64,000 nt of DNA from Thermoplasmata archaeon (GCA_035623855.1 DASPSQ010000005.1:2093-66092), one strand, 5' to 3'. Positions 1 to 38,067 are shown, counted from the first letter of the stretch. Notes: generated from the letters alone by a model not told the origin. Numbers and translations: made by a program.

Positions 1-1008
1 AAGACGTACGACCCGTACCCCATCAACATCCAGTCGGACACGTTCAGCTACCTGGGGCTACGCGGCTTCCTCGACGCGGCGTACCCGGACGCCACGATCC
101 AGTCGGAGTTCAATCAAATCCAGGGAATCGAGTACGGGTTCACGTACGGAGGGTTCATCCCCGAGTACATGGGAGACTACTATCCCACGAACATCACGTG
201 GCCAAACTACAACGTGACCTCGGGTCAGTTCGGTAACCCTTCGACGAACCCGTCGCAGGTCGGGTCGGCCGCGTGGTGGTGGGCACAGGTGACGTCCTCC
301 GGGTCGCAATTCTATGACCCGCAATTCGGATCGGGAGGCTACAGTTCGGCGAACCCGCTCCACGTCCCGGCACTGTACTTCCTGGGGGATCCGACCCACC
401 AATCGGTGCTGCAGCAGTGGAGCACCGAGGTCCAGAGCCTCACCGGCGGAGCGATCGTCTTCGACATCTTCCCCGTGGCCTCGGCTCTGGTCTTCTCGGA
501 GCTCCTGCCGGACGGCGGGACTCCGTGGGCGCTCTACTTCGATGCGTGGGAAGCGGACTACGCACAGCCGTACGACTACTGGGCGGCGTTCGGCGCGGCC
601 TCGGGGACGTATTCGGCCCCGAACACGTTCTACCTGACGTTCACCGAGGCGCAGTTCGACAACGCGGCGGTCTGTGGACACAGCGGCGTCTCGAGTTGGT
701 CGAACCTCACGTACTGGGCGAGCCAGCCGTACATCCCACAGGACTGCCAAGGGGTGGCGTATCTCGTCCTCCAGTACTGGGCGACCGTGGCGAACTCGAA
801 CCTGAACCTGGCGCAGGGGGCGCTCCAGTGGAACCGGATCTCGGCGGTCTACAACCTACTGAACCTCGCGGTGGACACGGACCAGATGAACACGTTCCAG
901 TTCGTCGGCCCGTGGATCAACCTCTCCACGCTGGACGCGAGCTCCCTCAACGGGTACCCGGGCGGCGAGGAGGTCTGGTACACCGTTCAGGGGAACGGAG
1001 TCAGCTAG
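1..1008 (+). CDS. Hypothetical Trp/Tyr/Asn-rich secreted or surface protein. The 5' end is truncated by the window edge: the frame is open from nt 1.
   Basis: Frame 1 is open from position 1 through the stop at 1006-1008. Composition is aromatic/Asn/Ser/Gly-rich with N-x-S/T sequons, typical of archaeal surface proteins. It is convergent with two downstream membrane/pilin-like genes. Confidence 0.45.
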   Translation, partial: KTYDPYPINIQSDTFSYLGLRGFLDAAYPDATIQSEFNQIQGIEYGFTYGGFIPEYMGDYYPTNITWPNYNVTSGQFGNPSTNPSQVGSAAWWWAQVTSSGSQFYDPQFGSGGYSSANPLHVPALYFLGDPTHQSVLQQWSTEVQSLTGGAIVFDIFPVASALVFSELLPDGGTPWALYFDAWEADYAQPYDYWAAFGAASGTYSAPNTFYLTFTEAQFDNAAVCGHSGVSSWSNLTYWASQPYIPQDCQGVAYLVLQYWATVANSNLNLAQGALQWNRISAVYNLLNLAVDTDQMNTFQFVGPWINLSTLDASSLNGYPGGEEVWYTVQGNGVS

Positions 1009-1350: not shown

Positions 1351-1905
1351 CTACGGAGGAGGCGCGTTCAGGGCGTCGAGGGTGATCAGGAGGACATAGG
1401 AAGCGTCGTTCGAAACGCTGGGGGCGTCCACGGCGACGTGAAACACGAAGTCGTCGACGCCGACCGGAGTGGTGGGAAGTGTCGGGACGGTGTACGCGAT
1501 CGAGAATGGAGAGTCGGCAGTCGCAGTGAAGATCGTCTTGTTCGAGGTCGCAAGGAGCGTGACCTGAACGGTGAAGACGCCCCCGGAAGGGACCTGGGCC
1601 GGTAGCCCGTCCTCGTCGGTCTCATTGATCGTGCTGTTCCCGAACCAGCCGTGGCCGTTGGAATCCGTTCCTTGCTCGATCGTCCACCGGACCTCGGTGA
1701 TGGTGACGGTCGGCTTCCCGGGTGTTGGCAGGACCAGCGTACCGAGGCCGATCAGGACCAGCAGCAGGATGACGAACGCCGCCATGATGACGATCCCGAT
1801 GCGCAGGAGGCCGACTCGACTTCGCCACCCTCGCCGACGGGGGGGTTGGCCGGCTCCGGACCCGGGACCGGAATCGCCCACCGTACTTGGGCCTCCCTCG
1901 TTCAC
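1351..1905 (-). CDS. Hypothetical membrane-anchored protein. It has an N-terminal Arg-rich segment followed by one hydrophobic helix and may carry a class-III/signal-anchor type signal.
   Basis: The N-terminus reads RRRGWRSRVGLLRIGIVIMAAFVILLLVLIGLGTLVL, followed by a Thr/Ser/Asn-rich beta-type ectodomain. It is adjacent to and co-directional with the pilin-like gene. Confidence 0.4.
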   Translation of the reverse strand: MNEGGPSTVGDSGPGSGAGQPPRRRGWRSRVGLLRIGIVIMAAFVILLLVLIGLGTLVLPTPGKPTVTITEVRWTIEQGTDSNGHGWFGNSTINETDEDGLPAQVPSGGVFTVQVTLLATSNKTIFTATADSPFSIAYTVPTLPTTPVGVDDFVFHVAVDAPSVSNDASYVLLITLDALNAPPP

Positions 1906-1916
1906 CCGCGACTCGA

Positions 1917-2831
1917 CTACAGGGGAGCGAGCGTAGCGACCGGGATCTCCGCCAGCACCGCGGACGGACTACCGGTGTAGGAGACGATAATCTTGCAGAT
2001 GGCGTCGTTGGAGAAGCACCAGGGCGGCGCGCCATGATAATCGTCGTAATCGAGCTGAGGGTGGCCGAGCGAGAACGGCGCGGGACAGTAGGAGGTAGGG
2101 TACCAGCTGTAACCCCCGAGGTCCGCCGCGACGCACAGGAACGTGACGGGGTACCCACCGTAGTGGAGGTAGAGGTAGAACGTGTCGCCAACGGTGAGGG
2201 ACGACTCGCCCGATCTCAGCGGATCGAAGAACCCCAGCCGGTTGTAGAGCGTTCCGTTCGCGGGAGTGAGACCTCTCACGAACGACCAACCCCCGGCATC
2301 AAAGTTCCCGCAGTACCCGAGGCTGGGCGCGTCCGGAGCGGGTTGGGTCGAGAGACCCGGGAACCACGTCATCGACGCGAGGGTCCCGCTGACGAGGGCT
2401 GTGGTGCCCCCGGCCGACGTGGAATTGTAGCAGATAAACGAGAACTGGACCTGATCGAGGGAAAGGGGAGCGGCAGAGGAGATCGATGAGACCACGATCT
2501 CGGTCGCATTCATCACCGAGAAGTTCCCCGTCGCGGTCTCGTAGCATTCCGCGTACCAATCATCGCTCCACGTTTGGTACTCGTCGGACGAGAGAGGATA
2601 GTCTGCAAGGGTGTATCCCGTCGGCTGACAGTCGGTAGGATCCCCCCACGCCGGGCTACTGCTCCCCGAACGGACCAAGAAATTCACAATGGGTGTCGAG
2701 GGCGGGGTGTAGATGCGGAAGCTCCAGAGGATCGCCCCGGCCACGATCGTGAGGCCGATCAACAGGATTGCGCCGATGATCTCCGCGACTCCTTTGTGGT
2801 GTCGGCGACGGCGCCAGTGACGAGAAGCCAT
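1917..2831 (-). CDS. Archaeal type-IV-pilin-like protein with a class III signal peptide. Alternative start at 2858.
   Basis: The N-terminus MASRHWRRRRHHKG|VAEIIGAILLIGLTIVAGAILW is a basic stretch followed by a Gly and a hydrophobic helix, which is typical of a prepilin peptidase (PibD/FlaK) substrate. The remainder is a Ser/Thr/Gly/Tyr-rich extracellular domain. A TAGATAT-like element lies ~25 nt upstream of the ATG at 2831. Confidence 0.45.
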   Translation of the reverse strand: MASRHWRRRRHHKGVAEIIGAILLIGLTIVAGAILWSFRIYTPPSTPIVNFLVRSGSSSPAWGDPTDCQPTGYTLADYPLSSDEYQTWSDDWYAECYETATGNFSVMNATEIVVSSISSAAPLSLDQVQFSFICYNSTSAGGTTALVSGTLASMTWFPGLSTQPAPDAPSLGYCGNFDAGGWSFVRGLTPANGTLYNRLGFFDPLRSGESSLTVGDTFYLYLHYGGYPVTFLCVAADLGGYSWYPTSYCPAPFSLGHPQLDYDDYHGAPPWCFSNDAICKIIVSYTGSPSAVLAEIPVATLAPL

Positions 2832-2968
2832 CCACTGTTGACTTCGTGGAAGGAGCATATCTAACTTACGTTTTCAGCCCGATCGCCTTCCAGGGAGCAG
2901 AACGGAAGCCGGGATCGTGGGACGGAGGGCGATGGGAGCCCCCCGTCCGGGAGGATCCGGGCCCTCCG

Positions 2969-4597
2969 CTAGCCCATGAACGGGCGACGCCAATCGTCGG
3001 GGAGAATCGCGCTCTCCTTGATGTTTCGCGGAGAGAGCCACCGGAGGAGGTTCAGCATCGAGCCGGCTTTGTCGTTCGTCCCGGATCTCCGGGCCCCCCC
3101 GAACGGCTGTCGGGAGACGATCGCGCCCGTCGGCTTGTCGTTGATGTAGAAGTTGCCGGCACTCCATCGAAGGACCCTCTCGGCTTCCGCAACAGCGGCC
3201 GTGTCCCGCCCGAAGACCGCTCCGGTCAGAGCGTACGGCGAGGTCGAACTGCAGAGCTCAAGGGTCTCCCCGTACTTCGCGTCGGGATAGACATATACGG
3301 TCAGGACGGGTCCAAAGATCTCTTCGGACATCAGCCTCCCTCCCGGGTCGAGGGAACGGATCACCGTCGGTCGGACGAACCATCCTTTGGAGGAGTCGTG
3401 CTCACCCCCGACCACAAACTGATACTCCTTCGGGTGCGCCGTCGCGAAGTCGAGGTAGTTCACGATGTTGCGGTACGCGGGTTCGTCGATGGCCGCGCCC
3501 AGGAGGTTCGAGAGTTCCTCGGTCGGTCCCATCGTCACCTTGGGGACTTCGACCTGCAGGATGCGCTCCATCTCCGGCCAGCGACTTTCGGGGATGTAGG
3601 CGCGAGAGCACGCCGAGCACTTCTGTCCCTGGTACTCGAACGCACCACGGATGAGGTTCATCGCCGTGCCTCGCGTCTCCGCCGAGGGATGCATGAAGAT
3701 GAAGTCCTTCCCTCCCGTCTCGCCGACGATCCGAGGAAAATTGCGGTACTTTTCGAGATTTTGTCCGACACGCTTCCAGATGCTCACGAGCGTATCGTAA
3801 CTCCCGGTGAAATGGACCCCGGCGAGGGCCGGGTGATCGAGCACCACGTTCGCGTCTCGGCTCTGGAACGGAACGAAGTTGATCACCCCGGGCGGGAGAC
3901 CCGCATCGACCAGAGTACGGAAAATCTCGAAATTCGAGAAGATCACCGATCGGGCCGGCTTCCACAGAGCGACGTTCCCGACCATCGCCGGGGCGGTGGG
4001 GAGATTGCCGGCGATGGAGTAGAAGTTGAACGGCGGGACGGCGAGGACGAATCCTTCGAGGGGTCGCCAATCGAAGCGGTTCGTCTCTCCCGGGTACTGG
4101 TACGGCTGCATCTCGTAGATCTGCCGGGTGAAGTACGCGTTGAAATTCCAGAAGTCCACCAGCTCCGCGAGGTCGATCTCCGCTTCGTACGGATTCTTCG
4201 AATGATTGAGCATGATCGCCGCGATATTCCGGGTCCGGCGGGGTCCCGCGAGCAGGGTCGCAGCCTTCTGGAAGACCGAGACCCGGTAGTACCAGTCCAT
4301 CTCGGCCCACTTCGCTTGAGCGGCCAGAGCGCTGTTGATCGCCGCACGGATCTCCTTCTCACCGGCGATGTGGGCCCGTGCGAGGATCGTGTGCGTATCG
4401 TGCGGGCAGTGAACGTCGACCAGGTTCCCCGACCGGACCGGGTTCCCGCCGATGACGAGCGGAATCTCGACGGTCTCCGTGCGCATCCGATCCAGCTCGC
4501 TCAGCAATCGCTCCCGATCCGGAGAGTTCGGCGCGTAGGATCGAATGGTATTGACGTCGTTCAGGGGCCGTTCCACGTTCCACGCCATGCAGCCCAT
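2969..4597 (-). CDS. 1-pyrroline-5-carboxylate dehydrogenase (L-glutamate gamma-semialdehyde dehydrogenase, ALDH superfamily). Alternative starts: ATG at 4588 and GTG at 4648.
   Basis: The ALDH fold is present, and the C-terminal FGGARRSGTNDKAG motif and overall P5CDH-like sequence (NFNAYF, GETGGKDF, EYQGQKCSA) match. It is adjacent to the proline dehydrogenase genes. Confidence 0.8.
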   Translation of the reverse strand: MGCMAWNVERPLNDVNTIRSYAPNSPDRERLLSELDRMRTETVEIPLVIGGNPVRSGNLVDVHCPHDTHTILARAHIAGEKEIRAAINSALAAQAKWAEMDWYYRVSVFQKAATLLAGPRRTRNIAAIMLNHSKNPYEAEIDLAELVDFWNFNAYFTRQIYEMQPYQYPGETNRFDWRPLEGFVLAVPPFNFYSIAGNLPTAPAMVGNVALWKPARSVIFSNFEIFRTLVDAGLPPGVINFVPFQSRDANVVLDHPALAGVHFTGSYDTLVSIWKRVGQNLEKYRNFPRIVGETGGKDFIFMHPSAETRGTAMNLIRGAFEYQGQKCSACSRAYIPESRWPEMERILQVEVPKVTMGPTEELSNLLGAAIDEPAYRNIVNYLDFATAHPKEYQFVVGGEHDSSKGWFVRPTVIRSLDPGGRLMSEEIFGPVLTVYVYPDAKYGETLELCSSTSPYALTGAVFGRDTAAVAEAERVLRWSAGNFYINDKPTGAIVSRQPFGGARRSGTNDKAGSMLNLLRWLSPRNIKESAILPDDWRRPFMG

Positions 4598-4782
4598 GAG
4601 TCGTCGAAATGTGCTAAATGTTACGGACTCCCTGCGAGCCGATATCACTTCGCAGTGAAAGGAAACGGGAGCGGCATCGGCGAACGCATTGCTCCCGGAC
4701 CTCTAAGGCAGTTCCGAGGGCGGTCCCGTCGAATCTTCTTGATGGCGGGTTAATCCCCGAGCCCCGTCTCGTATGGTTGACG

Positions 4783-6894
4783 ATGGAAGCCGAGTCGGCG
4801 GGCGGGCAGCATCGGATCACCTCGCATCCGGTTCTCGATATACCGGACCATCCCGCGATGGTCGAGTTCACGTTCGAGGGCCGACGACTCCGTGGCCGGG
4901 ACGCGGAGATGATCTCCTCGGCGCTCTTCGCCAACGGGATCCAGTGTTTCGGGCAGCACCCTCGGGACGGCTCCCCTCAGGGAATCTTCTGCGCGAACGG
5001 TCAATGCTCTCAATGTCTCGTCTTGGCCGACGGGATTCCCGTCAAAGCGTGCGTGACGGCCCTCCGGCCGGATATGGACGTCCTTCCTCTCAGCGCGTTG
5101 CCCACGTTGAAGGCGGACGACCAGCCCGTCCGCGGGCGAGGAGACACGCCGAAGGTCGAGACCGACGTGCTGATCATCGGCGGTGGGCCAGCGGGACTGA
5201 CCGCGGCGATCGAGCTCGGCCAGCATCGGGTGCCGACGATCCTCTGCGATGACAAGGCGACGCTCGGGGGAAAGCTCGGGCTCCAAACCCACAACTTCTT
5301 CGGCTCCGTTCGGGACTGTTACGCCGGTCAGCGCGGTCTCGAAATCGGCCGTCGGCTCGAGCACGATGCGCGGGCGGCGGAGTCGCTCGACGTCTGGCTC
5401 GATTCCCCGGTGGTCGGCGTGTTTTGCGACGGGTACGTGGGCGTGGTGCGGCAGGGCCGGTTCACGCTCGTGAGACCGAAGCGAATGCTGATCGCCGCGG
5501 GGGCGCGAGAGAAGATGCTCGCCTTTCCGGGGGCGGACCTCCCCGGAGTGTACGGTGCCGGGGCGTTCCAGACGCTCGTGAATCGGGATCTGATCCGCCC
5601 CTCCCAGCGGCTCTTCATCGTGGGGGGCGGGAACGTCGGCCTGATCGTTGCATACCAAGCCCTCCAGGCCGGTATTGACGTCGTCGGGCTGGTGGAAGTC
5701 CTCCCCCAGTGTGGGGGCTACAAGGTGCATCTCGACAAGATTCGCCGTCTCGGTGTCCCGGTATTCCCCTCCCACACGGTCGTCCGTGCTGAAGGTACGG
5801 CCCGCGTTGAACGGGTGATCGTCGCCCCCGTCGACGCGGAACTGCGTCCCCGGCCGGGCACGGAACGGGTCTTCGACGTCGACACGGTCCTCATCGCAGT
5901 GGGGCTCGCTCCGGTCAACGAGCTGTTCGAGGAGGGTCGACGTGCCGGGATCGGCGTCTACGCCGCAGGGGACGCGCACGAGATTGCGGAGGCGTCCGCG
6001 GCGATGTTCTCCGGAAAAATCATCGCTCGGACGATCCTCAAGGAGATGGGGTTTCCCGTCGAGGTTCCTGAAGAGTGGCGATCCACCCAGGCCATGCTCA
6101 GTTCCCATCCGGGCCCGATCATCGGCTCGTACCCGCCACCGGAAGGCAAACCCGTCTACCCGATCATCCGTTGTCCCCAGGAGATCCCGTGCAACCCCTG
6201 TACCGAGGCCTGCATCACCGGCGGGATCGTGATTCCCGAGGGAAACCTCCTCGGCCGGCCGCGACTCGTCGGAGACTGCGTCGGATGCCTCAAGTGCCTT
6301 GCCGTGTGCCCCGGACTCGCCATCTCCCTGGTCGACCGGCGCCACGACCCATCCGAACGCTTCGCGAGGGTGACGTTGGCTTGGGAGATGCCCGAGGGTC
6401 TCGTGAAACCTGGAATGGACGTACCGACGACCGGGGCCGACGGCGAACCCATTGGATCGGCTCGAGTGGTTCGGGTCCTCTCAGGTAAGGCGCTGAATCG
6501 TCGGCGGATGCTGGTGGTCGACGTCCCGACGGCCGAGGCGGACCGTGTGGCAGGAATCCGGATTCGCACGCCCGGGGAAGGAGCCCCGGTGGGGCTCCTC
6601 ACGCAGCCCTCGGACTCGGACGTGATTGTTTGCCGGTGTGAGCGGATCACCAAGGACGCAGTCCGGGAGTACATCCAAGCCACCGGCGCCCGCGACATCA
6701 ACGCGATCAAGGCGGGGCTGCGGTGCGGCATGGGCCCGTGCGGCGGGAAGACGTGCGGGGATCTGATCGGCCAGGTGTTCCGCGAGTTGGGGATTCCGAG
6801 GGCCGAGATCCAGCCCCCGGTCCGGCGGCCGTTCACCCAGGAGGTACCGCTCCGATCGTTCCTCGAGGAGGGAACCGATGAAGCCGGAGCATGA
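4783..6894 (+). CDS. L-proline dehydrogenase alpha-like subunit (opine/sarcosine oxidase alpha family), a multi-domain fusion: N-terminal [2Fe-2S] domain, FAD/NAD(P) pyridine-nucleotide-disulfide oxidoreductase domain, 2x[4Fe-4S] ferredoxin-like motif and a BFD-like [2Fe-2S] domain.
   Basis: Motifs include VEFTFEGRRL…CANGQCSQC; GxGxxG-type VLIIGGGPAGLTAA and IVGGGNVGL; CPQEIPCNPCTEAC…CVGCLKCLAVCP; and CRCERITKDAVREY…CGMGPCGGKTC. The ORF in the track starts at 4618, but I prefer the in-frame ATG at 4783. Confidence 0.7.
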   Translation: MEAESAGGQHRITSHPVLDIPDHPAMVEFTFEGRRLRGRDAEMISSALFANGIQCFGQHPRDGSPQGIFCANGQCSQCLVLADGIPVKACVTALRPDMDVLPLSALPTLKADDQPVRGRGDTPKVETDVLIIGGGPAGLTAAIELGQHRVPTILCDDKATLGGKLGLQTHNFFGSVRDCYAGQRGLEIGRRLEHDARAAESLDVWLDSPVVGVFCDGYVGVVRQGRFTLVRPKRMLIAAGAREKMLAFPGADLPGVYGAGAFQTLVNRDLIRPSQRLFIVGGGNVGLIVAYQALQAGIDVVGLVEVLPQCGGYKVHLDKIRRLGVPVFPSHTVVRAEGTARVERVIVAPVDAELRPRPGTERVFDVDTVLIAVGLAPVNELFEEGRRAGIGVYAAGDAHEIAEASAAMFSGKIIARTILKEMGFPVEVPEEWRSTQAMLSSHPGPIIGSYPPPEGKPVYPIIRCPQEIPCNPCTEACITGGIVIPEGNLLGRPRLVGDCVGCLKCLAVCPGLAISLVDRRHDPSERFARVTLAWEMPEGLVKPGMDVPTTGADGEPIGSARVVRVLSGKALNRRRMLVVDVPTAEADRVAGIRIRTPGEGAPVGLLTQPSDSDVIVCRCERITKDAVREYIQATGARDINAIKAGLRCGMGPCGGKTCGDLIGQVFRELGIPRAEIQPPVRRPFTQEVPLRSFLEEGTDEAGA

Positions 6895-8044
6895 TGCGAT
6901 CGTCATCGGAGCGGGCTCGGTGGGCAACCCGGCCGCGTATTTCCTCGCCCGAGAGGGCCTTCGTCCGCTCGTCCTCGACGAACTGTCCTCCTCTGGACAG
7001 GGTCAGAACAAGGCCGCGATCGGAGGGGTCCGTGCGACCCATTCGGATCCGGCCAAGATTCGACTGTGCCAAGAGAGCATCGAGATCTTCTCGACCTGGC
7101 AGGAGACGACCGGGACCAGCATCGGGTGGAAACGGGGAGGGTACTGTTTTCCAGCGTTCGACGAGAAGGTTGAATCGACGATCCAAGGCCTCCTTCCGAT
7201 TCAGAAGCGGTTCCGGCTCAACATCGATTGGGTCGACTCGAGCTCGATCCAACGGGTCGTTCCGGGGATCAACCCTCGGGGCTTGCGGGGCGGGACCTAC
7301 TCGCCAGATGATGGGCAGGCGAACCCACTCCTTGTCTCGGAGTCGTTCACGCACGAGGCAGTTCGTCTTGGGGCGACGTACCATTACCGGGAGCCTGTGA
7401 CGTCGTTGATCCGCGAGAATCATACGGTCGTTGGGGTCCGTACCCCGAAAGAGGAGTACCGAGCGAAGGTGGTCGTCATTGCCGCGGGCGCCCACGCGAG
7501 TCCGATCTGTGCCACCGTCGGCCTCGACCTTCCGGTGACCCCCGACAGCCACGAGGCAGGAATTTCGGCCCCGGTGGCCCCGTTCCTGGATCCGTTGGTC
7601 GTCGATCTCCGGCCCGGAGCCGAAGGTAAATCGAGCAACTTCTACTTCGGTCAGAATTCGGAGGGCCAGATCATCTTCTGCTACACTCCCCGGACTCCCA
7701 TCCTGGGCGAGAACCGGATCTCGACCTCCGAATTCATGCCGACGATCGCGGCCCGTCTCGTGGAGGTCATCCCGCGATTCAAGAATCTCACGATCCGCCG
7801 AATCTGGCGCGGGCTCTACCCGATGACCCCGGACGGAATCCCGATCGTCGGTAGGGCCCCCGGACTCGAGGGGTTGTATCTCGCGATCGGCATGTGCGGT
7901 CAGGGGTTCATGCTCGGACCCGGGGTCGGAAGGAGCCTCGCGTCGCTCATCGTGCACGGAAGGCCGTGCATCGACCCCGAGATCTTCGACTTGCTGAGTC
8001 CTTCCCGGGACCTAGGCAGGGGTAAGCGCGAGACCCTCAAGTGA
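6878..8044 (+). CDS. L-proline dehydrogenase beta subunit (FAD-dependent oxidoreductase, DAO/sarcosine oxidase beta family).
   Basis: The N-terminal dinucleotide-binding motif DAIVIGAGSVGNPAAYFLAREG is present and the fold is DAO-like. Its start overlaps the alpha-subunit stop by 17 nt, indicating translational coupling. Confidence 0.8.
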   Translation: MKPEHDAIVIGAGSVGNPAAYFLAREGLRPLVLDELSSSGQGQNKAAIGGVRATHSDPAKIRLCQESIEIFSTWQETTGTSIGWKRGGYCFPAFDEKVESTIQGLLPIQKRFRLNIDWVDSSSIQRVVPGINPRGLRGGTYSPDDGQANPLLVSESFTHEAVRLGATYHYREPVTSLIRENHTVVGVRTPKEEYRAKVVVIAAGAHASPICATVGLDLPVTPDSHEAGISAPVAPFLDPLVVDLRPGAEGKSSNFYFGQNSEGQIIFCYTPRTPILGENRISTSEFMPTIAARLVEVIPRFKNLTIRRIWRGLYPMTPDGIPIVGRAPGLEGLYLAIGMCGQGFMLGPGVGRSLASLIVHGRPCIDPEIFDLLSPSRDLGRGKRETLK

Positions 8045-25308: not shown

Positions 25309-28266
25309 TCAGCTGCGTCGAGGTCGACGCCGGGCGTCGCGGCTCGCCTCATCCGCCGACCCGTCGGGGGGCGCGATCGGATTCGGAGGATCCTCGCCGA
25401 GCGGGGCATACGCGACCGGGGTCCCGAGGTCGCTCGCGAGGAAGTCGTCCTGGGAGCGGTAGGAGTTCAAGCGCGACGGCCGCTGCGCGGGTCGCGGCCC
25501 CGTCAGGAGGTCGCCGGAGAGCTCTTCGGTTTCCTGGGAGAGCTGCTTCAACAGGTTGAGCCAGATCCGCCCCTGGTGGGCGATCGTCCCCTCGAGGCGG
25601 TCGCGCAGTTCGTTCGTCTGTTCGACGAGGTCGCCCTCGATCCGGCGCATCTCGCGGACCATCTCGCGGCGGATCTCCTTGAATCGAACCTCGGTCTCCT
25701 CAGAGATCGGTGCCCCCTTCTCGAGGTCGCCGACCTTGAGCCAGGTCTTCCGCAGGAGGGGGATCATCCGGTCGCTGAGGACCTGGATCCGTCGGTCGAG
25801 ATCCTCGAGGTCAGAGCGCAACCCGTTCTCGACCCGCTGGAGGTCAGCTTCCCGCTGGGCGAGTCGGGACTCGACGGTCTCGACACGGAGGAGGCCATCG
25901 TCCTGCGCCGCGCGCAGGCGGTTCTCCGCCTCCGCGATCTCCTTCGTCAGCGCGAGCTGCTGATCGGCACGAGCCGAGGCCACCGCCGGCGCGATTCGCT
26001 CCTTGATCGCCGCGTCGAACCGGCTCGGATCGACGGTCTTCGCGAGGGTCTGCTCGACCTCGGTCCGGAGCCGAGCCAGGAGCTCGACGTACTTGTCCCG
26101 CTCCTTCTCCTGGTTTTCGTTGAGCTTCTGCTCCACGAAGGCCTGGAGCCGGACCTGGAGGCCCGCGAGTGCTTCGGTCTGGGCGACCGAGAGCTCCGCG
26201 ACGCGCGCCTCCCGCTCGACCCCCAGGCGCTTTTCGACGCCGTTGACCCGCTCGTCGAGCGCCGCGGACGACCTCGACTGCAGGTCCGTGACCGCGGCCT
26301 TCAGCCGGGTCTCGACGTCCTTCGTCCGGCCGTCCACGAGGATCCCGAGCCTCTGCTCCAGATCCCGAACGTCCTTCGTCCGGCGCTGCTCGATCTCGGC
26401 CGCGTGGGCCTTCAGGAGGTCCCTCACGCGGGCCTCGATCTCCTCCCGGAGAGCGGTCCCTTGCTCCTTCGTCTCCGCCAGCTCGACCTCGAGTTGGGCA
26501 GCGAGCGCGGTCCGGAGCTCGTCCTCCCCGTGAGCGAATCCCGCCTTCGCCTCGTCGATCGACTGGCGGAGCTCTTCGCGGAGTCGCGCCGACCAGGCCT
26601 CCGTGGCGGATTGGACGGCCTGTCGGCTCTTCTCCGTCACCTCGGCGAGGGTCGGGTCGAGCTGGGCGTGGAGGTTCTTCTCGACCTGAGCGGAGACCGT
26701 CCCGGGGTCCAGGACCGGCCGGGACTCGACGGCGGCGATCCGCGCCCCGACGTCCGCCTGGACGCCCAGCATCCCGCGAGCGGACTGCTCGGTAGCTTCC
26801 CGGATCTTCGTGTCGACCGTCGCGAGGAGGCGGGCATCCCGCTGGGCCGCCTCGGTGGGGTCGGCGACCGGTTTCGGGAGCTCGGCGAGTCGCTGATCGA
26901 GGATCCGTCGGATTCGCGCGTCGAGGTCCGCGTCCCCCACCGGCACCGGGGCAACTGCGGCGGCGACCGACGCAGATCCCTCCGGCGGAGGCGACCCCGT
27001 TCGCAGGGAATTGTCATCGCTCACCGAGAGCGGGACCCCTGGAGTGCTGGAGGCCGGCAGGGCGATGTCCACCGGGCGCTGGAGCCACGGTGGATGCTGC
27101 GTCGTTCCGGGCGACGGGGCCGGCCCGGAGATCGGCTCCGGAGGAAGGGGGGCCTCGATGGCTCGGGGGATGGGGATCGACGGCTGAGCCTGAAGGTACT
27201 CGTTCGCCCGCTTGACCGCCTCTCCCGACATCGGGACGGAGCGGCCCTTCGGCTTCACGAGCAAGAGAGCGGCGGTTTCCATCGCGGTCCCGATCCGCCA
27301 CATCTCCTTGCGCCGATCGCGCCCGCCCTGGCCCTCGGCGTCCTGGATCTCCGCCTGCATCCGGGTGCCTTCCACCGCGTCGACGCGACGGGAGACCTCG
27401 GAGATCTTGGGGTCCTGATGATCCCGAACGTACTGGAGGACGAGCGGGAGGCTCTCGCGGGACCGAGTGGGGGTCGGTTTCGTGAGATCCCGCAACATGA
27501 CGGGGGCGGACCCCCAACTGTCGAGTCGCTTCGAGTGCCGCTCGCCCTGCGCTTCGCCTTTCGGCACGCGCATAACGGCGAGCGCGAGCGGAATCTGCTC
27601 GGTGAACTCGTGCGGGTTCACCTTCGCCTCGGGCAGGAAATACGGGAAGACGAGGAACGCACTGAGCGCGATCAGCGAGGTCGGGAGGAGCCGCACCATG
27701 TCGAGGACCACCTGGCTCGCCGACTCCCACTGCTCGGCGGCGACGACGACGACGGGTTCGGTGGTCCCGCGGTGGAACAGGAACCCCTCTCCGATGGCCT
27801 GGTACACCGACGCGTCCGGTTCGGCGGTGACCCGCGGGGGGCCCGATTTCCCTCCCATGCTCGCATGGGCCCGAAGGACCGCGGGACCGAACTCCCCGCT
27901 CTCGACCAGGTCCGCGGTCGAGAAGACGAGCGTTTTCATTCCGAGCCGAGGTCGATCCTCGGTGGAGAGGAACATCCGTCCGATGCATGTGTACCGGCCA
28001 TTGGCCGCCGGGTAAAGGAACAGATTCGGGTAGTACGAGAGCGGCTGCGACGGATCCGGATCCCAATAGTCGTGGGTGTCGGCGACGTTAACCGTCAGGT
28101 TGCCGATCATCCGGATCGCCTCCAGAGTCTCACGGCGCCCCGGGAATTCCTCGGGGATCGTCGTGTACCCCGGGCTTTCGGCCTCGTTGTCGACCTGGCG
28201 GCACCAGACGACGGAGATCGGGGCGAGGCCCGCGAGTGGCGCGCTCGCGGGTACCGCCGTCGACAT
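25309..28266 (-). CDS. Giant coiled-coil protein (985 aa). It has an N-terminal ~330-aa globular domain, a Pro-rich linker and a ~550-aa Ala/Glu/Arg/Leu-rich coiled-coil region.
   Basis: There are long heptad-like stretches (e.g. EELRQSIDEAKAGF…LEVELAETKEQGTALREEIEARVRDLLKAHAAEIEQRR…) and the linker PSIPIPRAIEAPLPPEPISGPAPSPGTT. The ATG is 4 nt after the upstream GTPase stop. Confidence 0.6.
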   Translation of the reverse strand: MSTAVPASAPLAGLAPISVVWCRQVDNEAESPGYTTIPEEFPGRRETLEAIRMIGNLTVNVADTHDYWDPDPSQPLSYYPNLFLYPAANGRYTCIGRMFLSTEDRPRLGMKTLVFSTADLVESGEFGPAVLRAHASMGGKSGPPRVTAEPDASVYQAIGEGFLFHRGTTEPVVVVAAEQWESASQVVLDMVRLLPTSLIALSAFLVFPYFLPEAKVNPHEFTEQIPLALAVMRVPKGEAQGERHSKRLDSWGSAPVMLRDLTKPTPTRSRESLPLVLQYVRDHQDPKISEVSRRVDAVEGTRMQAEIQDAEGQGGRDRRKEMWRIGTAMETAALLLVKPKGRSVPMSGEAVKRANEYLQAQPSIPIPRAIEAPLPPEPISGPAPSPGTTQHPPWLQRPVDIALPASSTPGVPLSVSDDNSLRTGSPPPEGSASVAAAVAPVPVGDADLDARIRRILDQRLAELPKPVADPTEAAQRDARLLATVDTKIREATEQSARGMLGVQADVGARIAAVESRPVLDPGTVSAQVEKNLHAQLDPTLAEVTEKSRQAVQSATEAWSARLREELRQSIDEAKAGFAHGEDELRTALAAQLEVELAETKEQGTALREEIEARVRDLLKAHAAEIEQRRTKDVRDLEQRLGILVDGRTKDVETRLKAAVTDLQSRSSAALDERVNGVEKRLGVEREARVAELSVAQTEALAGLQVRLQAFVEQKLNENQEKERDKYVELLARLRTEVEQTLAKTVDPSRFDAAIKERIAPAVASARADQQLALTKEIAEAENRLRAAQDDGLLRVETVESRLAQREADLQRVENGLRSDLEDLDRRIQVLSDRMIPLLRKTWLKVGDLEKGAPISEETEVRFKEIRREMVREMRRIEGDLVEQTNELRDRLEGTIAHQGRIWLNLLKQLSQETEELSGDLLTGPRPAQRPSRLNSYRSQDDFLASDLGTPVAYAPLGEDPPNPIAPPDGSADEASRDARRRPRRS

Positions 28267-28269
28267 CGC

Positions 28270-29436
28270 TTACTCCCCCTTGGTCGCGCGTCGTTCGAGA
28301 ACCCGCTCGCACGCGCGTGCGAGCGGAAGGGTGGTGTTGACCATGACCGGGACTCCCAGCGTCTGCGTCCCCACGTTCGGCGCTTCCTCTCCGGTCTCTC
28401 CGATGAACAGGGGGTGCCCTTCCCCGGTCGAAACGGCGCTCGACACGAGGAAGACGTCCTCCTTCATCGAGATTCCCCGGCCTTCCTGCGCGACCAGGAT
28501 CGTCCCCATCCCCGCTCCGTCCCGGCGCAGGAGAAAATCGACGGGGTCGAACGCGCTCCGGTAGGCGCGCTCGCGGATCGATTGCTCGATCTCGGAGTAG
28601 AACTCCTTCAGTTTGTCGGCCTTCGATACCGCGATCACGAGCGGGAGGTTCCGGGACTTCGCGTATCGGAAGACGCCGCGGGCGAGGTTCACCTGCTGGG
28701 CCTGATCCCGCAGGGATGGAAGCCCGGGGGAAAGGAGGAGGATCAGCGCGTCCGCGCCCGTGACGAACCGGCCGAGGAGGGTCAGTCCGCGCCGCCAGAG
28801 ATCCCGTCGGTCGGGGCGCCAGGAATCGAAGTGTGGAATCACCCGGCACGTCTTCTCGAGGACCTCCTCGTCCGGGGTCGACAGCCAGAGCCGATCGTAT
28901 GTGAAGTAGTCGGCGATGATCCCACCGGCCTCGTCGATCGTTTGCAGTTCCATGGGGCGGGAGCCGATCTCCCCGTTCGCCGCCCCATAGCGGAACCGCA
29001 TCTTCATCTCGACGAACTGATTGAATTTCGTCGGGAGAGGGTACTTCGTCAGGATCCCCTGGTCCTCGCGCCCAGCGCTCAGCTCGACCCAGAGCTTGCG
29101 GCGGTCCTCCATCGGGCGGTTGACGTAGTACCGGGTCGTTGTCTCGAGGCTTCCCTCGGGATCGGTCGGATCGGTGGTTTCGTACGTCGTCTCCTCGAGC
29201 GCGACGTCGTTCTCGAGGTCCCCGTAGAGCGGAAGGGTTCCGTTGTCCGCGCGCGACGGGATGTACAGGATCGGGAGATTCAATCCGAAATGTCCGGAAA
29301 GGAACCGAAAGTAAGTGGTCTTTCCCGACGCAGGGATGCCCACGACGGCCACGCGCGCGGAATCGCCGGACGGCTTCGCCTCACGCTTCGTCCCGGCTGC
29401 CCGACGTGTGCGGGTCGTGACCTTGACCTCGGGCAT
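28270..29436 (-). CDS. P-loop NTPase, putative GTPase.
   Basis: Walker A VAVVGIPASGKTTYF is present, and the candidate G4-like motif VSKADKL suggests guanine specificity. I recognise no close family. It is coupled to the vWA gene upstream and the coiled-coil gene downstream. Confidence 0.55.
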   Translation of the reverse strand: MPEVKVTTRTRRAAGTKREAKPSGDSARVAVVGIPASGKTTYFRFLSGHFGLNLPILYIPSRADNGTLPLYGDLENDVALEETTYETTDPTDPEGSLETTTRYYVNRPMEDRRKLWVELSAGREDQGILTKYPLPTKFNQFVEMKMRFRYGAANGEIGSRPMELQTIDEAGGIIADYFTYDRLWLSTPDEEVLEKTCRVIPHFDSWRPDRRDLWRRGLTLLGRFVTGADALILLLSPGLPSLRDQAQQVNLARGVFRYAKSRNLPLVIAVSKADKLKEFYSEIEQSIRERAYRSAFDPVDFLLRRDGAGMGTILVAQEGRGISMKEDVFLVSSAVSTGEGHPLFIGETGEEAPNVGTQTLGVPVMVNTTLPLARACERVLERRATKGE

Positions 29437-29448
29437 TTGGATCGACTC

Positions 29449-30957
29449 CTACCGCATCTCCGCTAGGCAGATCTCGATGAAATCCAGCGCGCCCTCGACC
29501 ACGGGGCCACCGGAGGCGAGCTCGAGGCGCGCATCCTGCAGGAGCCCGAAGATCTCCTCGACCGCGGCCTCGTGCTTGAGGGCCGCATCCTGAAGGTCGC
29601 CCTCCCCCGCGAGCCGCGTGAGCTGGTACGTCCCGCGAAGTTCCATGAGCTTGTCGAACAGGTCCATCAGGCGTTCCCGCGTCGTGGCATCACTTTGGCC
29701 CAACCCATGCTCGGTATTATCGATGAACTTAACGAGTGTCTCGGTCTCCTTGTCGTTCTGCATCCGGGCCTGAAGCATGGCAAGGCGCCTCACGATCGGC
29801 CCCTGGGACGGCTCGGGTAGCTTTTCTGCCTCCGCCCAGGCCTGAAGGAGAGCTCGCGCGGCCTCCACGACCGCGCGGCGCGCGAATTGTACGCGCGCTT
29901 CCCAGTAGAGACGGGTGACGGGTGGGAGCACGGCCTGCGACCTCGAGAGGAGTTCCAACGCGTGGTCGTACTCCCCCCGGACGTAGGCCTCGACGACCTC
30001 GCCGAGGGGGCCATAACGCTCTCGCAGGTAGGCCGGGGCACTCGCCGGCGTCCCTGACACCACGTCGACCTCGATTTCGGGAGCCTCCCGGTAGGCCGCC
30101 TCCGCCGCGGGACGCGGGGCGATGACCGCCGCACCCCGAATCCGCGAGACCGTCGCGTGTTGCTGCGGCTCTTTCAGCGCTCGGGCCGCGCTCGCGGCAC
30201 GGCGCGCGAGCTCCTCCGGGTGGAGCTCCTCGATCGGCTGATCCCCCTCGTACCCGACGTCCACGAACGCGTGGACCATCTGGGCGAAGAGCGCGGAACC
30301 AGTCGTGACCTCTTGGAAGCTGAACGGGGCCGGGACTCCGAGCAGCTGGGCGCGATCGGTGAGCTGCGCGAGGAATTGGTTCATGTGCCCGGCGTCGACG
30401 CCCTTGTCCCGTTCGTCGCCGTTTCCAATCCCGATCAGGCGGAAGGTCAGACGAGAGTTCGCGGGCAGTATGTACGGGATGAGGTCGATCTTACCGTTGG
30501 GCAGCGGAGCGTGGGAGGAGTTGCGGACGTCGAAGCGCTGGGATGCGTTGTCCCACCCGTCCGTGACGAGGACGAGGTTTCCCCGAACTCCTTCCACCCC
30601 CATCCGGAGAAGGTCGGCGCCCACGGCGATCGCGTCCCAGATCGCGGACCGGCCGCTCGGCGTGAGGAGGCTGATGAGGTTCTCGATGTACGGGAGGTTC
30701 TCCTTGTGGATTTCTCCCAGCGGGACCGGGACGCGGACCGTCTCGGTGAATGTGACGAGGCCGAACGGGTTGCCGGAGGTCGAGGCATCCTGAAGGATTC
30801 GGAACACCGCAGTTCGGGCGACTTCGATCTTCTGACGCTCCGGGGAGCCCGGTTGCGGCTCCGGCAGCGGAGCGAGCATGCTCTTCGAGAGATCGAGGAT
30901 CAGGACGTTCCGCTCCCGTTCGGGACCTGTCGTGGGTGAAGTAGAATCTTGAAGCAT
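29449..30957 (-). CDS. von Willebrand factor type A (vWA) domain protein with a C-terminal all-helical domain.
   Basis: MIDAS motif DLSKS (VLILDLSKSM), conserved LVTDGWDN and a Thr/Ser MIDAS partner. About 250 aa of helical region (TPR-like) follow. Confidence 0.65.
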   Translation of the reverse strand: MLQDSTSPTTGPERERNVLILDLSKSMLAPLPEPQPGSPERQKIEVARTAVFRILQDASTSGNPFGLVTFTETVRVPVPLGEIHKENLPYIENLISLLTPSGRSAIWDAIAVGADLLRMGVEGVRGNLVLVTDGWDNASQRFDVRNSSHAPLPNGKIDLIPYILPANSRLTFRLIGIGNGDERDKGVDAGHMNQFLAQLTDRAQLLGVPAPFSFQEVTTGSALFAQMVHAFVDVGYEGDQPIEELHPEELARRAASAARALKEPQQHATVSRIRGAAVIAPRPAAEAAYREAPEIEVDVVSGTPASAPAYLRERYGPLGEVVEAYVRGEYDHALELLSRSQAVLPPVTRLYWEARVQFARRAVVEAARALLQAWAEAEKLPEPSQGPIVRRLAMLQARMQNDKETETLVKFIDNTEHGLGQSDATTRERLMDLFDKLMELRGTYQLTRLAGEGDLQDAALKHEAAVEEIFGLLQDARLELASGGPVVEGALDFIEICLAEMR

Positions 30958-34444: not shown

Positions 34445-35289
34445 TGGACCGCCGTCTGACACGCGAAGCATTACGACTGATGGAATCCCACCAGCCGTTC
34501 GTGCGAGCGGCGGTGGTGAAGGCGGTCGGCTCGGTTCCCGGAAAGGTCGGCGCGACAATGATCGTGCGGTCGGACGGCTCGTATCTCGGGACGGTCGGAG
34601 GCGCCGCTCTCGAGGAGCAGGTCAAGTCACTCGCGATGGAGGCGTTCGAGACCCATCGGGGCGACCTCCACCATTTCGACCTCCAGGCATGGGCCCCGGG
34701 GGGCCTCCCCAGTCTCTGCGGCGGCTCGGTGGAGATCGCCGTCGAGTACGTTCCCGCCCGTCCGAACCTCCTTCTCTGGGGAGGCGGTCATGTTGCCCAG
34801 GCGCTCGCCGCGATCCTCCCGACCCTGGAGTTCGACTACAGCGTCGCGGACGATCGCCCGGAGTGGATCGGTGCGGATCGGTTCCCCCACGCCGACCGCC
34901 GGGAGGCGGTCTCCCCGGCTCGCATCTGGGAGATCTTCGATCCTCCGACGTTCACGCACCTCTACCTCCTCGGGTACGACGCAGCGAAGGACCTCGAGGT
35001 CCTTGCGAGCGCGATCGAGCGATTCCCCAACGCGATCGGACTGATCGCGAGCGCATCGAAACGCGAGCACATGTTCCAAGAGCTTCGCTCGCGAGGGGTA
35101 TCGCGGGAATCGCTCACCCGGGTCCGATCTCCCGTGGGGCTCGAGATCGGGGCCGAGACACCGGCCGAGATCGCTGTGAGCATCGTGGCCGAGATCGTAG
35201 CCGGGATGCACCCGGCCAAGGTACGTAGTCGTGCGCGTGGGGAATCCTCCACCCCCCGGGAGACCGATGCCGTCCCGCGATCTCCTTAA
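34441..35289 (+). CDS. XdhC/CoxI family molybdoenzyme maturation factor.
   Basis: XdhC N-terminal domain plus Rossmann-like C-terminal domain (LLLWGGGHVAQALAAI). The start overlaps the MocA stop. Confidence 0.7.
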   Translation: MMDRRLTREALRLMESHQPFVRAAVVKAVGSVPGKVGATMIVRSDGSYLGTVGGAALEEQVKSLAMEAFETHRGDLHHFDLQAWAPGGLPSLCGGSVEIAVEYVPARPNLLLWGGGHVAQALAAILPTLEFDYSVADDRPEWIGADRFPHADRREAVSPARIWEIFDPPTFTHLYLLGYDAAKDLEVLASAIERFPNAIGLIASASKREHMFQELRSRGVSRESLTRVRSPVGLEIGAETPAEIAVSIVAEIVAGMHPAKVRSRARGESSTPRETDAVPRSP

Positions 35290-38061: not shown

Positions 38062-38067
38062 CGGACG

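What the first reader, a model, noticed from the sequence alone, without database searches (positions are those of the whole stretch)
2969..8044. Proline-to-glutamate catabolic module with a four-domain fused PDH alpha subunit
P5C dehydrogenase (minus strand) is divergent from pdhA-like and pdhB-like genes (17-nt overlap). The alpha-like subunit fuses, in one 704-aa chain, the [2Fe-2S] N-domain, the FAD/NAD(P) oxidoreductase, a 2x[4Fe-4S] ferredoxin module and a BFD-like [2Fe-2S] domain. In Thermococcales PDH complexes the ferredoxin-like functions are separate small subunits, so this looks like an alpha-gamma-delta fusion. The same architecture also fits opine oxidase or HCN-synthase-type enzymes, so the substrate assignment rests mainly on the adjacent P5CDH.
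Basis: partly seen in the sequence, partly recalled or inferred. Interest (0 to 1): 0.55.

Follow-up and report, generated by a model that had tools for sequence, protein, structure and literature searches.

The report
Proline-to-glutamate genes with fused dehydrogenase subunit
An uncultured Thermoplasmata archaeon carries three genes that most likely turn proline into glutamate, and the large subunit of the proline dehydrogenase joins three normally separate electron-carrying subunits into one chain; this version is widespread but has never been studied.

Summary
A P5C dehydrogenase (2969-4588, minus strand) lies head-to-head with an alpha gene (4783-6894; 703 aa, not 704) and a beta gene (6878-8044), which overlap by 17 nt.

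Alpha contains a [2Fe-2S] Fer2_4 domain, an FAD/NAD(H) two-Rossmann core, an eight-cysteine 2x[4Fe-4S] module followed by a small beta-barrel, and a BFD-like [2Fe-2S] domain. All 16 cluster cysteines are invariant in 64 homologues.

Alpha is colinear (about 41% identity) with split operons that encode alpha (475 aa), gamma (161 aa), delta (104 aa) and beta (380 aa). That is the published gene order of the Thermococcus four-subunit proline dehydrogenase. The alpha-gamma-delta fusion reading is therefore supported, although no Thermococcales sequence could be compared directly.

The fused form is not rare. It occurs in at least 80 species-level genomes of Thermoplasmatota, Asgard archaea, Cloacimonadota, Syntrophomonadaceae and others.

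Beta is closest to Pyrococcus PDH1 beta among solved structures, but at only about 30% identity and in a clade of its own. P5CDH is adjacent in only 5 of 81 loci. Other lineages link the pair to ornithine aminotransferase, ProC, hydroxyproline dehydratase and, in split operons, proline racemase. All of these point to proline/P5C.

Many relatives sit beside NuoEF-like or GltD/MvhD/CCG modules, which hints at electron bifurcation.

Verdict: a new variant of a known kind, of moderate interest.

The parts
2969..4588 (-). P5C (L-glutamate gamma-semialdehyde) dehydrogenase, 539 aa counted from the conserved start
   Evidence: TIGR01236 728.9 bits, above the 613.6 cut-off; Pfam Aldedh 280 bits. Catalytic motifs ETGGK and GQKCSA are present. 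The start Met aligns with the start in L001.
4589..4782 (.). 194-bp divergent intergenic region; presumed promoters for both transcription units
   Evidence: Read directly from the sequence. L001 has the same head-to-head layout, but the DNA is poorly conserved. No promoter element was demonstrated.
4783..6894 (+). Fused alpha-gamma-delta subunit, 703 aa, 75 kDa
   Evidence: Identical to P0001 from a Thermoplasmata MAG. Best PDB sequence hits are 1Y56_A and the SoxA chains 2gag_A/1vrq_A. AF2 model: pLDDT 84, pTM 0.85. Foldseek top hits are SoxA and PDH1 alpha.
4855..5082 (+). N-terminal Fer2_4 [2Fe-2S] domain (residues 25-100)
   Evidence: Pfam Fer2_4 68 bits. C70, C75 and C90 are invariant in 64/64 homologues and C78 in 63/64. 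It aligns with the separate 107-aa 2Fe-2S protein of opine oxidase and with the cysteine-less N-domain of 1Y56_A (PMC1949818).
5164..6051 (+). Two-Rossmann FAD / NAD(H) oxidoreductase core (residues 128-423)
   Evidence: Pyr_redox_2 86 bits. G133-x-G135-P136-x-G138, D156-D157-K158, G281/G283-N284-V285-G286 (G282 in 63/64), E305 and C310-G-G-Y-K are invariant. Colinear with split-type alpha from L083 (41% identity).
6145..6582 (+). Gamma-like module: 2x[4Fe-4S] ferredoxin fold plus a small beta-barrel (residues 455-600)
   Evidence: Eight invariant cysteines. Aligns with the free 161-168-aa subunits P0132 and P0133. Absent from 1Y56_A and OoxA. The barrel is predicted confidently but has no significant solved relative.
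6616..6882 (+). Delta-like BFD / SO_alpha_A3 [2Fe-2S] domain (residues 612-700)
   Evidence: Fer2_BFD 35 bits. C617, C619, C653 and C658 are invariant. Aligns with the free 91-104-aa delta subunits and with residues 410-481 of 1Y56_A. The fold matches P. aeruginosa Bfd at 1.5 A over 55 aa.
6878..8044 (+). Beta subunit, DAO-family FAD dehydrogenase (388 aa); the presumed proline-oxidising subunit
   Evidence: Pfam DAO 197 bits. Best PDB hit is 1Y56_B, 4.5e-45. It lies directly downstream of alpha in 64 of 73 loci that have room. Alpha-beta single-chain fusions exist.

Best explanation
This is a two-step L-proline to L-glutamate catabolic module.

- Step 1. Beta, a DAO-family flavoprotein, oxidises L-proline to delta-1-pyrroline-5-carboxylate (P5C).
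- Electron handling. The two electrons pass to alpha. Alpha is a single 75-kDa chain that carries, in the same order, the modules found as separate alpha, gamma and delta subunits in four-gene proline dehydrogenase operons: a [2Fe-2S] Fer2_4 domain, an FAD domain with a second NAD(H)-type dinucleotide site, a 2x[4Fe-4S] ferredoxin module with a small barrel, and a BFD-like [2Fe-2S] domain. These form an internal wire from the beta flavin to alpha's own flavin/NAD(H) site or to an external carrier such as ferredoxin.
- Step 2. P5C opens spontaneously to glutamate semialdehyde. The divergently transcribed P5C dehydrogenase oxidises it to glutamate with NAD(P)+.

Shown here: gene content, domain order, cysteine conservation, colinearity with split operons, and obligatory alpha-beta pairing.

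Inferred: the substrate, the direction of electron flow, the order of the clusters in the wire, and the final acceptor.
For: - P5CDH is assigned above the equivalog cut-off.
- Beta's best solved relative is the L-proline dehydrogenase subunit 1Y56_B (157 bits). The next best are DMGDH at 99 bits, glycine oxidase at 78 and SoxB at 74. OoxB scores 81 bits at 25% identity.
- Alpha aligns with 1Y56_A over residues 27-427 and 613-685, leaving a 185-aa insert. The insert aligns with free gamma subunits.
- Split operons L083, L085, L088 and L089 encode alpha, gamma, delta and beta in the published Thermococcus order. L090 shows yet another partition of the same ordered modules.
- All 16 cluster cysteines and both dinucleotide motifs are conserved in 64 homologues; only C78 departs, in one sequence.
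- P5CDH is adjacent in five loci in two different arrangements: divergent in the window and L001, co-directional in L007, L014 and L056.
- Other lineages place alpha-beta next to ornithine aminotransferase, ProC, HypD, ornithine carbamoyltransferase and carbamate kinase. A split-type operon follows a prolidase-like gene and a proline racemase.
- The AF2 model is compact and confident.
Against: - Beta is only about 30% identical to PDH1 beta. In a neighbour-joining tree it forms its own clade, about as far from an uncharacterised Azospirillum three-subunit enzyme (28%). Substrate cannot be transferred by orthology.
- P5CDH is adjacent in only 5 of 81 loci.
- ProC, a P5C reductase, sits next to alpha-beta in Syntrophomonadaceae, which is awkward for a purely catabolic proline oxidase.
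- No Thermococcales alpha-beta-gamma-delta sequence was compared directly.
- HcnC, LhpB and bacterial opine dehydrogenase beta subunits were not available for the tree.
- The electron acceptor is unknown, and proline oxidation (about -120 mV, from general knowledge) cannot reduce NAD+ unaided.
Confidence: 0.62

Rival explanations
1. The alpha-beta pair belongs to a flavin-based electron-bifurcating or -confurcating system. It would couple the proline/P5C couple to NAD(P)H and ferredoxin, for example Pro + Fd(red) + 2 NAD+ -> P5C + Fd(ox) + 2 NADH, or the reverse as an energy-conserving P5C reductase. In this genome the NAD(P)H/ferredoxin partner would be encoded outside the window. This changes the mechanism, not the substrate.
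For: - In 18 of 81 loci (15 of them archaeal, Thermoplasmatota-type, plus three bacterial) a ~1010-aa protein lies directly upstream of alpha. It combines GltD/NfnB-like Fer4_20 + Pyr_redox_2, 2x[4Fe-4S], MvhD/FlpD and a weak, sub-threshold CCG match (19.3 bits, cut-off 20.6).
- In 10 bacterial loci a NuoE-NuoF fusion lies upstream (within 6 kb of alpha in seven). In three loci both occur, together with an HdrD-like CCG protein.
- Single-chain fusions exist: MvhD/Fe-S + alpha (P0135), a GltD-like module inserted into the gamma barrel (P0140), and flavodoxin + alpha (P0141).
- After SoxA and PDH1 alpha, the best structural matches of alpha are the NfnA subunits of bifurcating NfnABC.
- The hosts are largely anaerobic amino-acid degraders: Cloacimonadota, Syntrophomonadaceae and Asgard archaea.
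Against: - None of these partner genes is in the 64-kb window, which is nearly the whole 66-kb contig.
- Here, and in the closest relative L001, the neighbour is P5CDH instead.
- 30 loci with at least 3 kb upstream have no such partner.
- No biochemical evidence for bifurcation exists for any member, and a literature search found no report.
Confidence: 0.2
2. The pair oxidises a different secondary amine or amino acid (sarcosine, an opine, D-proline, hydroxyproline, pipecolate, or glycine as in HCN synthase), and the P5CDH neighbour is coincidental or serves another route.
For: - Beta belongs to the broad DAO family and scores below every NCBIfam cut-off: ThiO 119 bits against 251, SoxB 102 against 529.
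- It forms its own clade at about 30% identity or less to any characterised enzyme.
- JGI annotates many homologues as 'sarcosine oxidase subunit alpha'.
Against: - Alpha lacks the folate-binding C-terminal half of SoxA (703 aa against 965 aa; TIGR01372 133 bits against a 1164 cut-off).
- Opine oxidase has no 4Fe-4S module, and OoxB is only 25% identical.
- Five independent kinds of neighbour (P5CDH, OAT, ProC, HypD and, beside split operons, proline racemase) all concern proline/P5C.
- No opine or sarcosine transport or metabolism genes are nearby.
Confidence: 0.13

Closest known systems
Heterotetrameric (alpha-beta-gamma-delta) dye-linked L-proline/NADH dehydrogenase of Thermococcales (T. 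profundus PdhA/PdhF/PdhX/PdhB; P. horikoshii PH1748-PH1751)
   Same: The set and order of modules match: alpha (oxidoreductase), gamma (ferredoxin-like), delta (small), beta (DAO-type). Split operons with this order and with subunit sizes of 475-523, 161-168, 91-104 and 380 aa are colinear with window alpha + beta. The second dinucleotide motif fits the NADH dehydrogenase activity reported for that alpha subunit (from my own recollection of Kawakami et al. 2004/2005).
   Different: Here alpha, gamma and delta are one polypeptide. Beta is only about 32% identical to split-type beta and lies in a separate clade. Cys310 is invariant in the fused clade but absent from split-type alpha. No Thermococcales sequence was compared directly.
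Heterooctameric alpha4beta4 L-proline dehydrogenase PDH1 of Pyrococcus horikoshii (PDB 1Y56)
   Same: It is the best solved relative of both subunits and among the top three Foldseek matches for alpha (TMt 0.79). Its alpha already has the delta-like Cys-cluster domain fused at the C-terminus.
   Different: PDH1 alpha lacks the whole gamma module (window residues 428-612 have no counterpart). Its N-domain has lost the [2Fe-2S] cysteines (PMC1949818). Its nucleotide site binds ATP (title of Tsuge et al. 2005, as cited).
Three-subunit opine oxidase/dehydrogenase, HCN synthase and D-hydroxyproline dehydrogenase (OoxB / 2Fe-2S protein / OoxA; HcnABC; LhpBEF)
   Same: It shares the DAO-type beta, a Fer2_4 [2Fe-2S] unit and a Pyr_redox_2 + BFD alpha subunit.
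   Different: The Fer2_4 unit is a separate 107-aa protein and there is no 2x[4Fe-4S]/barrel module. OoxB is 25% and OoxA 24% identical.
Heterotetrameric sarcosine oxidase SoxABDG (PDB 2GAG, 1X31)
   Same: The N-terminal half of SoxA is the top structural match of alpha, and SoxB is a distant homologue of beta.
   Different: SoxA is 965 aa with a folate-dependent C-terminal half and no Fe-S clusters. Scores are far below the NCBIfam cut-offs. There are no soxD or soxG genes here.

Membership tests
Archaeal alpha-beta-gamma-delta L-proline dehydrogenase (PdhABFX type) | A DAO-family beta subunit related to PDH beta | tested here: inconclusive
   The best PDB hit is 1Y56_B (157 bits). However, identity is about 30% and beta forms a separate clade in the NJ tree. 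PH1751 and PdhB were not available.
Archaeal alpha-beta-gamma-delta L-proline dehydrogenase (PdhABFX type) | Modules in the order oxidoreductase (alpha), ferredoxin-like (gamma), small subunit (delta), then beta | tested here: met
   Colinear alignment with the split operons L083 and L085, and the same layout in L088/L089. The published order is pdhA-pdhF-pdhX-pdhB.
Archaeal alpha-beta-gamma-delta L-proline dehydrogenase (PdhABFX type) | Four separate polypeptides | tested here: not met
   Alpha, gamma and delta are one 703-aa ORF with no internal stop. The same holds in at least 80 species-level genomes.
Archaeal alpha-beta-gamma-delta L-proline dehydrogenase (PdhABFX type) | Sequence homology to the Thermococcales subunits themselves | not tested
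   No Thermococcales sequence was retrieved. The profile search listed none among its best 120 hits.
Archaeal alpha-beta-gamma-delta L-proline dehydrogenase (PdhABFX type) | L-proline to P5C activity and NADH:dye activity | not testable with these tools
   This requires enzyme assays.
PDH1-type alpha4beta4 proline dehydrogenase (1Y56) | An alpha subunit of ~490 aa with a cysteine-less N-domain, an ATP site and no ferredoxin module | tested here: not met
   Window alpha has the four N-domain cysteines and a 185-aa insert with eight cysteines.
Opine oxidase / HCN synthase / D-Hyp dehydrogenase three-subunit flavoenzymes | A separate small [2Fe-2S] subunit and an alpha subunit without 4Fe-4S clusters | tested here: not met
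   Comparison with Ti-plasmid Oox. HcnABC and LhpBEF were not tested.
Heterotetrameric sarcosine oxidase | SoxA with a folate-binding C-terminal half; SoxB above the TIGR01373 cut-off; soxD and soxG genes | tested here: not met
   TIGR01372 133 bits against 1164; TIGR01373 102 bits against 529. No soxD or soxG in the neighbourhood.
P5C dehydrogenase (TIGR01236, ALDH4-type) | A score above the equivalog cut-off and the catalytic Glu/Cys motifs | tested here: met
   728.9 bits against 613.6. ETGGK and GQKCSA are present.
Flavin-based electron-bifurcating complexes (Nfn / Bfu / Hdr-like) | A bifurcating flavoprotein partner (NfnB/GltD-like, NuoF-like or HdrA-like) encoded with the enzyme | tested here: not met
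   Absent from the 64-kb window. Present next to alpha-beta in 25 related loci within 6 kb (28 counting the three loci whose NuoE-NuoF gene lies further upstream) and as fusions.

The most novel reading that the evidence does not exclude
The fused alpha-beta enzyme family is the substrate arm of an undescribed flavin-based electron-confurcating or -bifurcating proline/P5C oxidoreductase. In anaerobes it would dock onto GltD/MvhD/CCG or NuoEF modules, so that proline oxidation (about -120 mV) together with reduced ferredoxin drives NAD(P)+ reduction, or the reverse. The window would encode a stand-alone descendant that is tied to P5CDH instead.
Probability: 0.2. Interest if true: 0.75.

Novelty: new variant of a known kind. 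Interest (0 to 1): 0.4.

Why it matters
Archaeal multi-subunit proline dehydrogenases have been studied only in Thermococcales, mainly as thermostable biosensor enzymes. Their physiological electron acceptor and the role of the gamma and delta subunits remain unclear.

The five modules (Fer2_4, oxidoreductase, 2x[4Fe-4S]/barrel, BFD, DAO) always occur in one fixed order but are cut into one to five genes. The fully fused alpha is the common form in many uncultured archaea and anaerobic bacteria. This gives a simpler two-protein system for expression and structural work.

The fixed order also argues that gamma and delta are integral parts of one electron wire rather than accessory proteins.

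The recurrent pairing of relatives with NuoEF-like and GltD/MvhD/CCG modules suggests how strict anaerobes might oxidise proline without a respiratory chain. That is a testable idea about amino-acid fermentation and syntrophy.

For genome annotation, these proteins are currently labelled 'FAD-dependent oxidoreductase', '2Fe-2S-binding protein' or 'sarcosine oxidase alpha'. They could be given a specific name.

Tried and rejected
- **Thermococcales PdhF/PdhX sequences.** I tried to obtain them with a profile of the gamma module. No Thermococcales protein was among the 120 listed hits, and all three homology searches were then spent.
- **Literature.** Searches for the domain content of the gamma and delta subunits gave only the gene order and gene numbers. 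The A. pernix paper is not held.
- **Insert-only search**. It returned only 13 short proteins, because the long fused proteins were not collected. It did reveal the free gamma subunits.
- **Divergent intergenic region.** Alignment with L001 showed no convincing shared motif.
- **Partner genes.** A search of the window for the GltD/MvhD-like, NuoEF-like, ProC and OAT neighbours seen elsewhere found none.
- **RNA genes.** Rfam and tRNA scans of the window were empty.
- **HCN synthase.** I considered it and set it aside. It belongs to the three-subunit group without the 4Fe-4S module, and nothing in any neighbourhood concerns glycine or cyanide. HcnABC sequences were not tested directly.
Full report
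**What is in the window.**
The window comes from a high-GC (about 65-70%) archaeal contig. It carries a TFB gene and pilin-like proteins with class-III signal peptides. Its alpha protein is 100% identical to an NCBI protein from a Thermoplasmata MAG on a 66-kb contig.

Three genes make up the finding.
- The minus-strand ORF 2969..4648 scores 728.9 bits against TIGR01236, L-glutamate gamma-semialdehyde (P5C) dehydrogenase, above the 613.6 cut-off. Comparison with the closest relative puts its start at Met21, giving 2969..4588 and 539 aa.
- After a 194-bp divergent spacer, alpha runs from the ATG at 4783 to 6894. It is 703 aa, not 704.
- Beta starts at 6878, exactly 17 nt before alpha's stop, and ends at 8044.

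**Anatomy of alpha.**
Pfam finds Fer2_4 (residues 25-100), Pyr_redox_2 (128-388) and Fer2_BFD (615-667) above threshold. The 4Fe-4S families score only below threshold. The sequence itself shows C70-x4-C75-x2-C78-x11-C90, then C464-x5-C470-x2-C473-x3-C477 and C499-x2-C502-x2-C505-x3-C509-P, then C617-x-C619...C653-x4-C658.

In 64 full-length homologues from many phyla, these 16 cysteines are invariant, apart from C78, which is replaced in one sequence. So are both dinucleotide motifs (GxGPxG...DDK and GGGNVG...E305) and Cys310.

AlphaFold gives a compact model (pLDDT 84, pTM 0.85). After the ferredoxin-like part there is a confidently predicted beta-barrel of about 90 residues. It has no significant solved relative. 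The C-terminal part superposes on P. aeruginosa Bfd at 1.5 A over 55 residues.

**Is it an alpha-gamma-delta fusion?**
Against solved structures, alpha's best sequence match is P. horikoshii PDH1 alpha (1Y56_A). The alignment covers residues 27-427 and again 613-685, so residues 428-612 are an insert relative to PDH1.

That insert exists elsewhere as a free protein of 161-168 aa (P0132, P0133) with the same eight cysteines. The contigs that encode these free proteins carry four consecutive genes:
- alpha: 475-523 aa, Fer2_4 + Pyr_redox_2;
- gamma: 161-168 aa;
- delta: 91-104 aa, SO_alpha_A3/BFD;
- beta: 380 aa, DAO.

The three L083 products align with window alpha residues 11-423, 461-593 and 612-700, each at about 41% identity.

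The order alpha-gamma-delta-beta is the one reported for T. profundus pdhA-pdhF-pdhX-pdhB and the T. litoralis cluster (PMC4364671). The P. horikoshii proline/NADH dehydrogenase is likewise expressed from four genes, PH1748-PH1751 (PMC8703374).

Other partitions of the same modules also occur:
- Fer2_4 | Pyr_redox_2 | gamma+delta | beta (L090);
- gamma+delta proteins of 250-280 aa;
- alpha-beta single chains, and alpha-gamma-delta-beta single chains.

In every case the module order is the same and only the gene boundaries move. The fusion reading is therefore well supported. The one gap is that I could not retrieve a Thermococcales sequence to align directly.

**How common is it?**
The fused alpha is not a peculiarity of this genome.
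- The homology search found more than 120 clusters of 678-718 aa at 62% identity or more, most of them ~695-700 aa, and those that carry an organism name are all from Thermoplasmata.
- The scan of species-representative genomes found 257 relatives. The best 80 span Thermoplasmatota, Methanomassiliicoccales, Asgard archaea, Cloacimonadota (including Ca. Syntrophosphaera thermopropionivorans), Syntrophomonadaceae, Anaerolineae, Victivallales, Fibrobacteraceae, Elusimicrobia and Myxococcota; nearly all (about 74 of the 80) carry the full-length gene at 48-69% identity, the rest being cut by contig ends.
- Beta follows alpha directly in 64 of 73 loci with room for it.

**Substrate.**
Among solved structures, beta is clearly closest to the proline-oxidising subunit 1Y56_B (157 bits). 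DMGDH scores 99, glycine oxidase 78 and SoxB 74. Ti-plasmid OoxB reaches 81 bits at 25% identity.

In a neighbour-joining tree the fused-type betas form their own clade. Window beta is about 30% identical to PDH1 beta, 32% to split-type beta and 28% to an uncharacterised Azospirillum three-subunit enzyme. Homology therefore suggests proline but does not prove it.

Gene context adds independent support.
- P5CDH is adjacent in five loci, in two arrangements: divergent in the window and L001, co-directional upstream in L007, L014 and L056.
- Syntrophomonadaceae loci read: hydroxyproline dehydratase (a truncated ORF scoring 956 bits on the HypD model) - ornithine aminotransferase - NuoEF-like - alpha - beta - ProC.
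- Asgard loci read: AOR-like - alpha - beta - ornithine carbamoyltransferase - carbamate kinase - ornithine aminotransferase.
- A split-type operon follows a prolidase-like gene and a proline racemase, as in T. litoralis.

All of these enzymes make or use proline or P5C. The sarcosine-oxidase and opine-oxidase alternatives fail on architecture. SoxA has a folate-binding half and no Fe-S clusters, and its scores are far below cut-off. Oox has a separate 2Fe-2S protein and no 4Fe-4S module.

**How it probably works.**
Beta oxidises L-proline to P5C on its FAD. Electrons then enter alpha and travel through the BFD-type [2Fe-2S], the two [4Fe-4S] clusters and the N-terminal [2Fe-2S], to alpha's flavin/NAD(H) site or to an external carrier. 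By analogy with PDH1, entry may be through a flavin at the subunit interface. P5C hydrolyses and is oxidised to glutamate by the neighbouring P5CDH.

The order of the clusters and the final acceptor are inferred. The tools return no coordinates, so distances could not be measured.

**A wider lead.**
In 18 related loci a ~1010-aa protein lies directly upstream of alpha. It combines GltD/NfnB-like, 2x[4Fe-4S] and MvhD modules, plus a CCG match that is below Pfam's cut-off in the member scanned (19.3 bits against 20.6). In 10 bacterial loci a NuoE-NuoF fusion is upstream (within 6 kb of alpha in seven of them), and three loci have both plus an HdrD-like protein.

Single-chain fusions also join alpha to an MvhD/Fe-S module (P0135), to a GltD-like module inserted in the gamma barrel (P0140) and to a flavodoxin (P0141). 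After SoxA and PDH1 alpha, the next structural matches of alpha are the NfnA subunits of bifurcating NfnABC.

This suggests that in anaerobes the family is wired to NAD(P)H/ferredoxin modules, possibly for electron confurcation. None of these partners is in the window, and I found no report of such an enzyme. This remains a hypothesis about relatives rather than about this locus.

**Verdict.**
The locus is a fused-subunit variant of a known enzyme type. It is widespread but uncharacterised and generically annotated. Interest is moderate (0.4). The most interesting aspect, possible coupling to bifurcating modules, lies in related genomes.

Noticed in passing
L003-L024 (e.g. L023:1919-4957), L027, L036, L044: A ~1010-aa protein lies directly upstream of the fused alpha in 18 related loci. 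It combines GltD/NfnB-like Fer4_20 + Pyr_redox_2, 2x[4Fe-4S] and MvhD/FlpD, plus a CCG match that is below Pfam's cut-off (19.3 bits against 20.6). It is absent from the window.
   Followed up: partly
L029-L032, L052, L057, L067 (e.g. L031:3851-6220); also L027, L036, L044: A NuoE-NuoF fusion (~790 aa) lies upstream of alpha-beta in 10 bacterial loci. In L027, L036 and L044 it occurs together with NuoE-like, Fer2_4/4Fe-4S, GltD/MvhD and HdrD-like CCG genes. This looks like a Bfu/Nfn-type bifurcating module.
   Followed up: partly
P0135, P0140, P0141: Single-chain fusions of the fused alpha with an MvhD/Fe-S module (P0135), with a GltD-like flavoprotein inserted inside the gamma barrel (P0140), and with an N-terminal flavodoxin (P0141). 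P0146, P0152, P0160 and P0148 are alpha-beta fusions.
   Followed up: partly
window alpha residue 310 (nt 5710-5712): Cys310, in the motif P-Q-C-G-G-Y-K just after the NAD(H)-type Rossmann strand, is invariant in all 64 fused-type alphas. It is replaced (F or I) in the split-type alphas of L083 and L085. Its role is unknown.
   Followed up: no
L052, L057, L067, L030, L033: The Syntrophomonadaceae loci contain ProC, a P5C reductase, on the same strand just after alpha-beta. This would oppose a proline dehydrogenase unless the system runs in the reductive direction or is differentially regulated.
   Followed up: no
window 35231-39051 (+): A CoxS/L/M-type molybdenum hydroxylase operon: a small [2Fe-2S] subunit, a MoCo-binding large subunit and an FAD medium subunit. 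The substrate is unknown.
   Followed up: no
window 25309-30957 (-): Three co-directional genes: 985-aa and 388-aa proteins with no Pfam match, next to a VWA-domain protein (502 aa).
   Followed up: no
window 1351-2858 (-) and 169-1008 (+): Two adjacent proteins (184 and 313 aa) have archaeal pilin-like hydrophobic N-termini (class-III signal peptide type) and no Pfam hit. A Ser/Thr/Asn-rich 279-aa ORF lies upstream.
   Followed up: no
window 49853-52066 (+), 54687-59351 (+): A 737-aa KaiC-like ATPase and a 1554-aa protein made almost entirely of TPR repeats.
   Followed up: no
L088:1-4760: In a Bipolaricaulota-type contig, the split alpha/gamma/delta/beta operon is preceded by a prolidase-like M24 peptidase, an S-Me-THD (DUF917) protein and a proline racemase. 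This resembles the T. litoralis proline cluster.
   Followed up: partly
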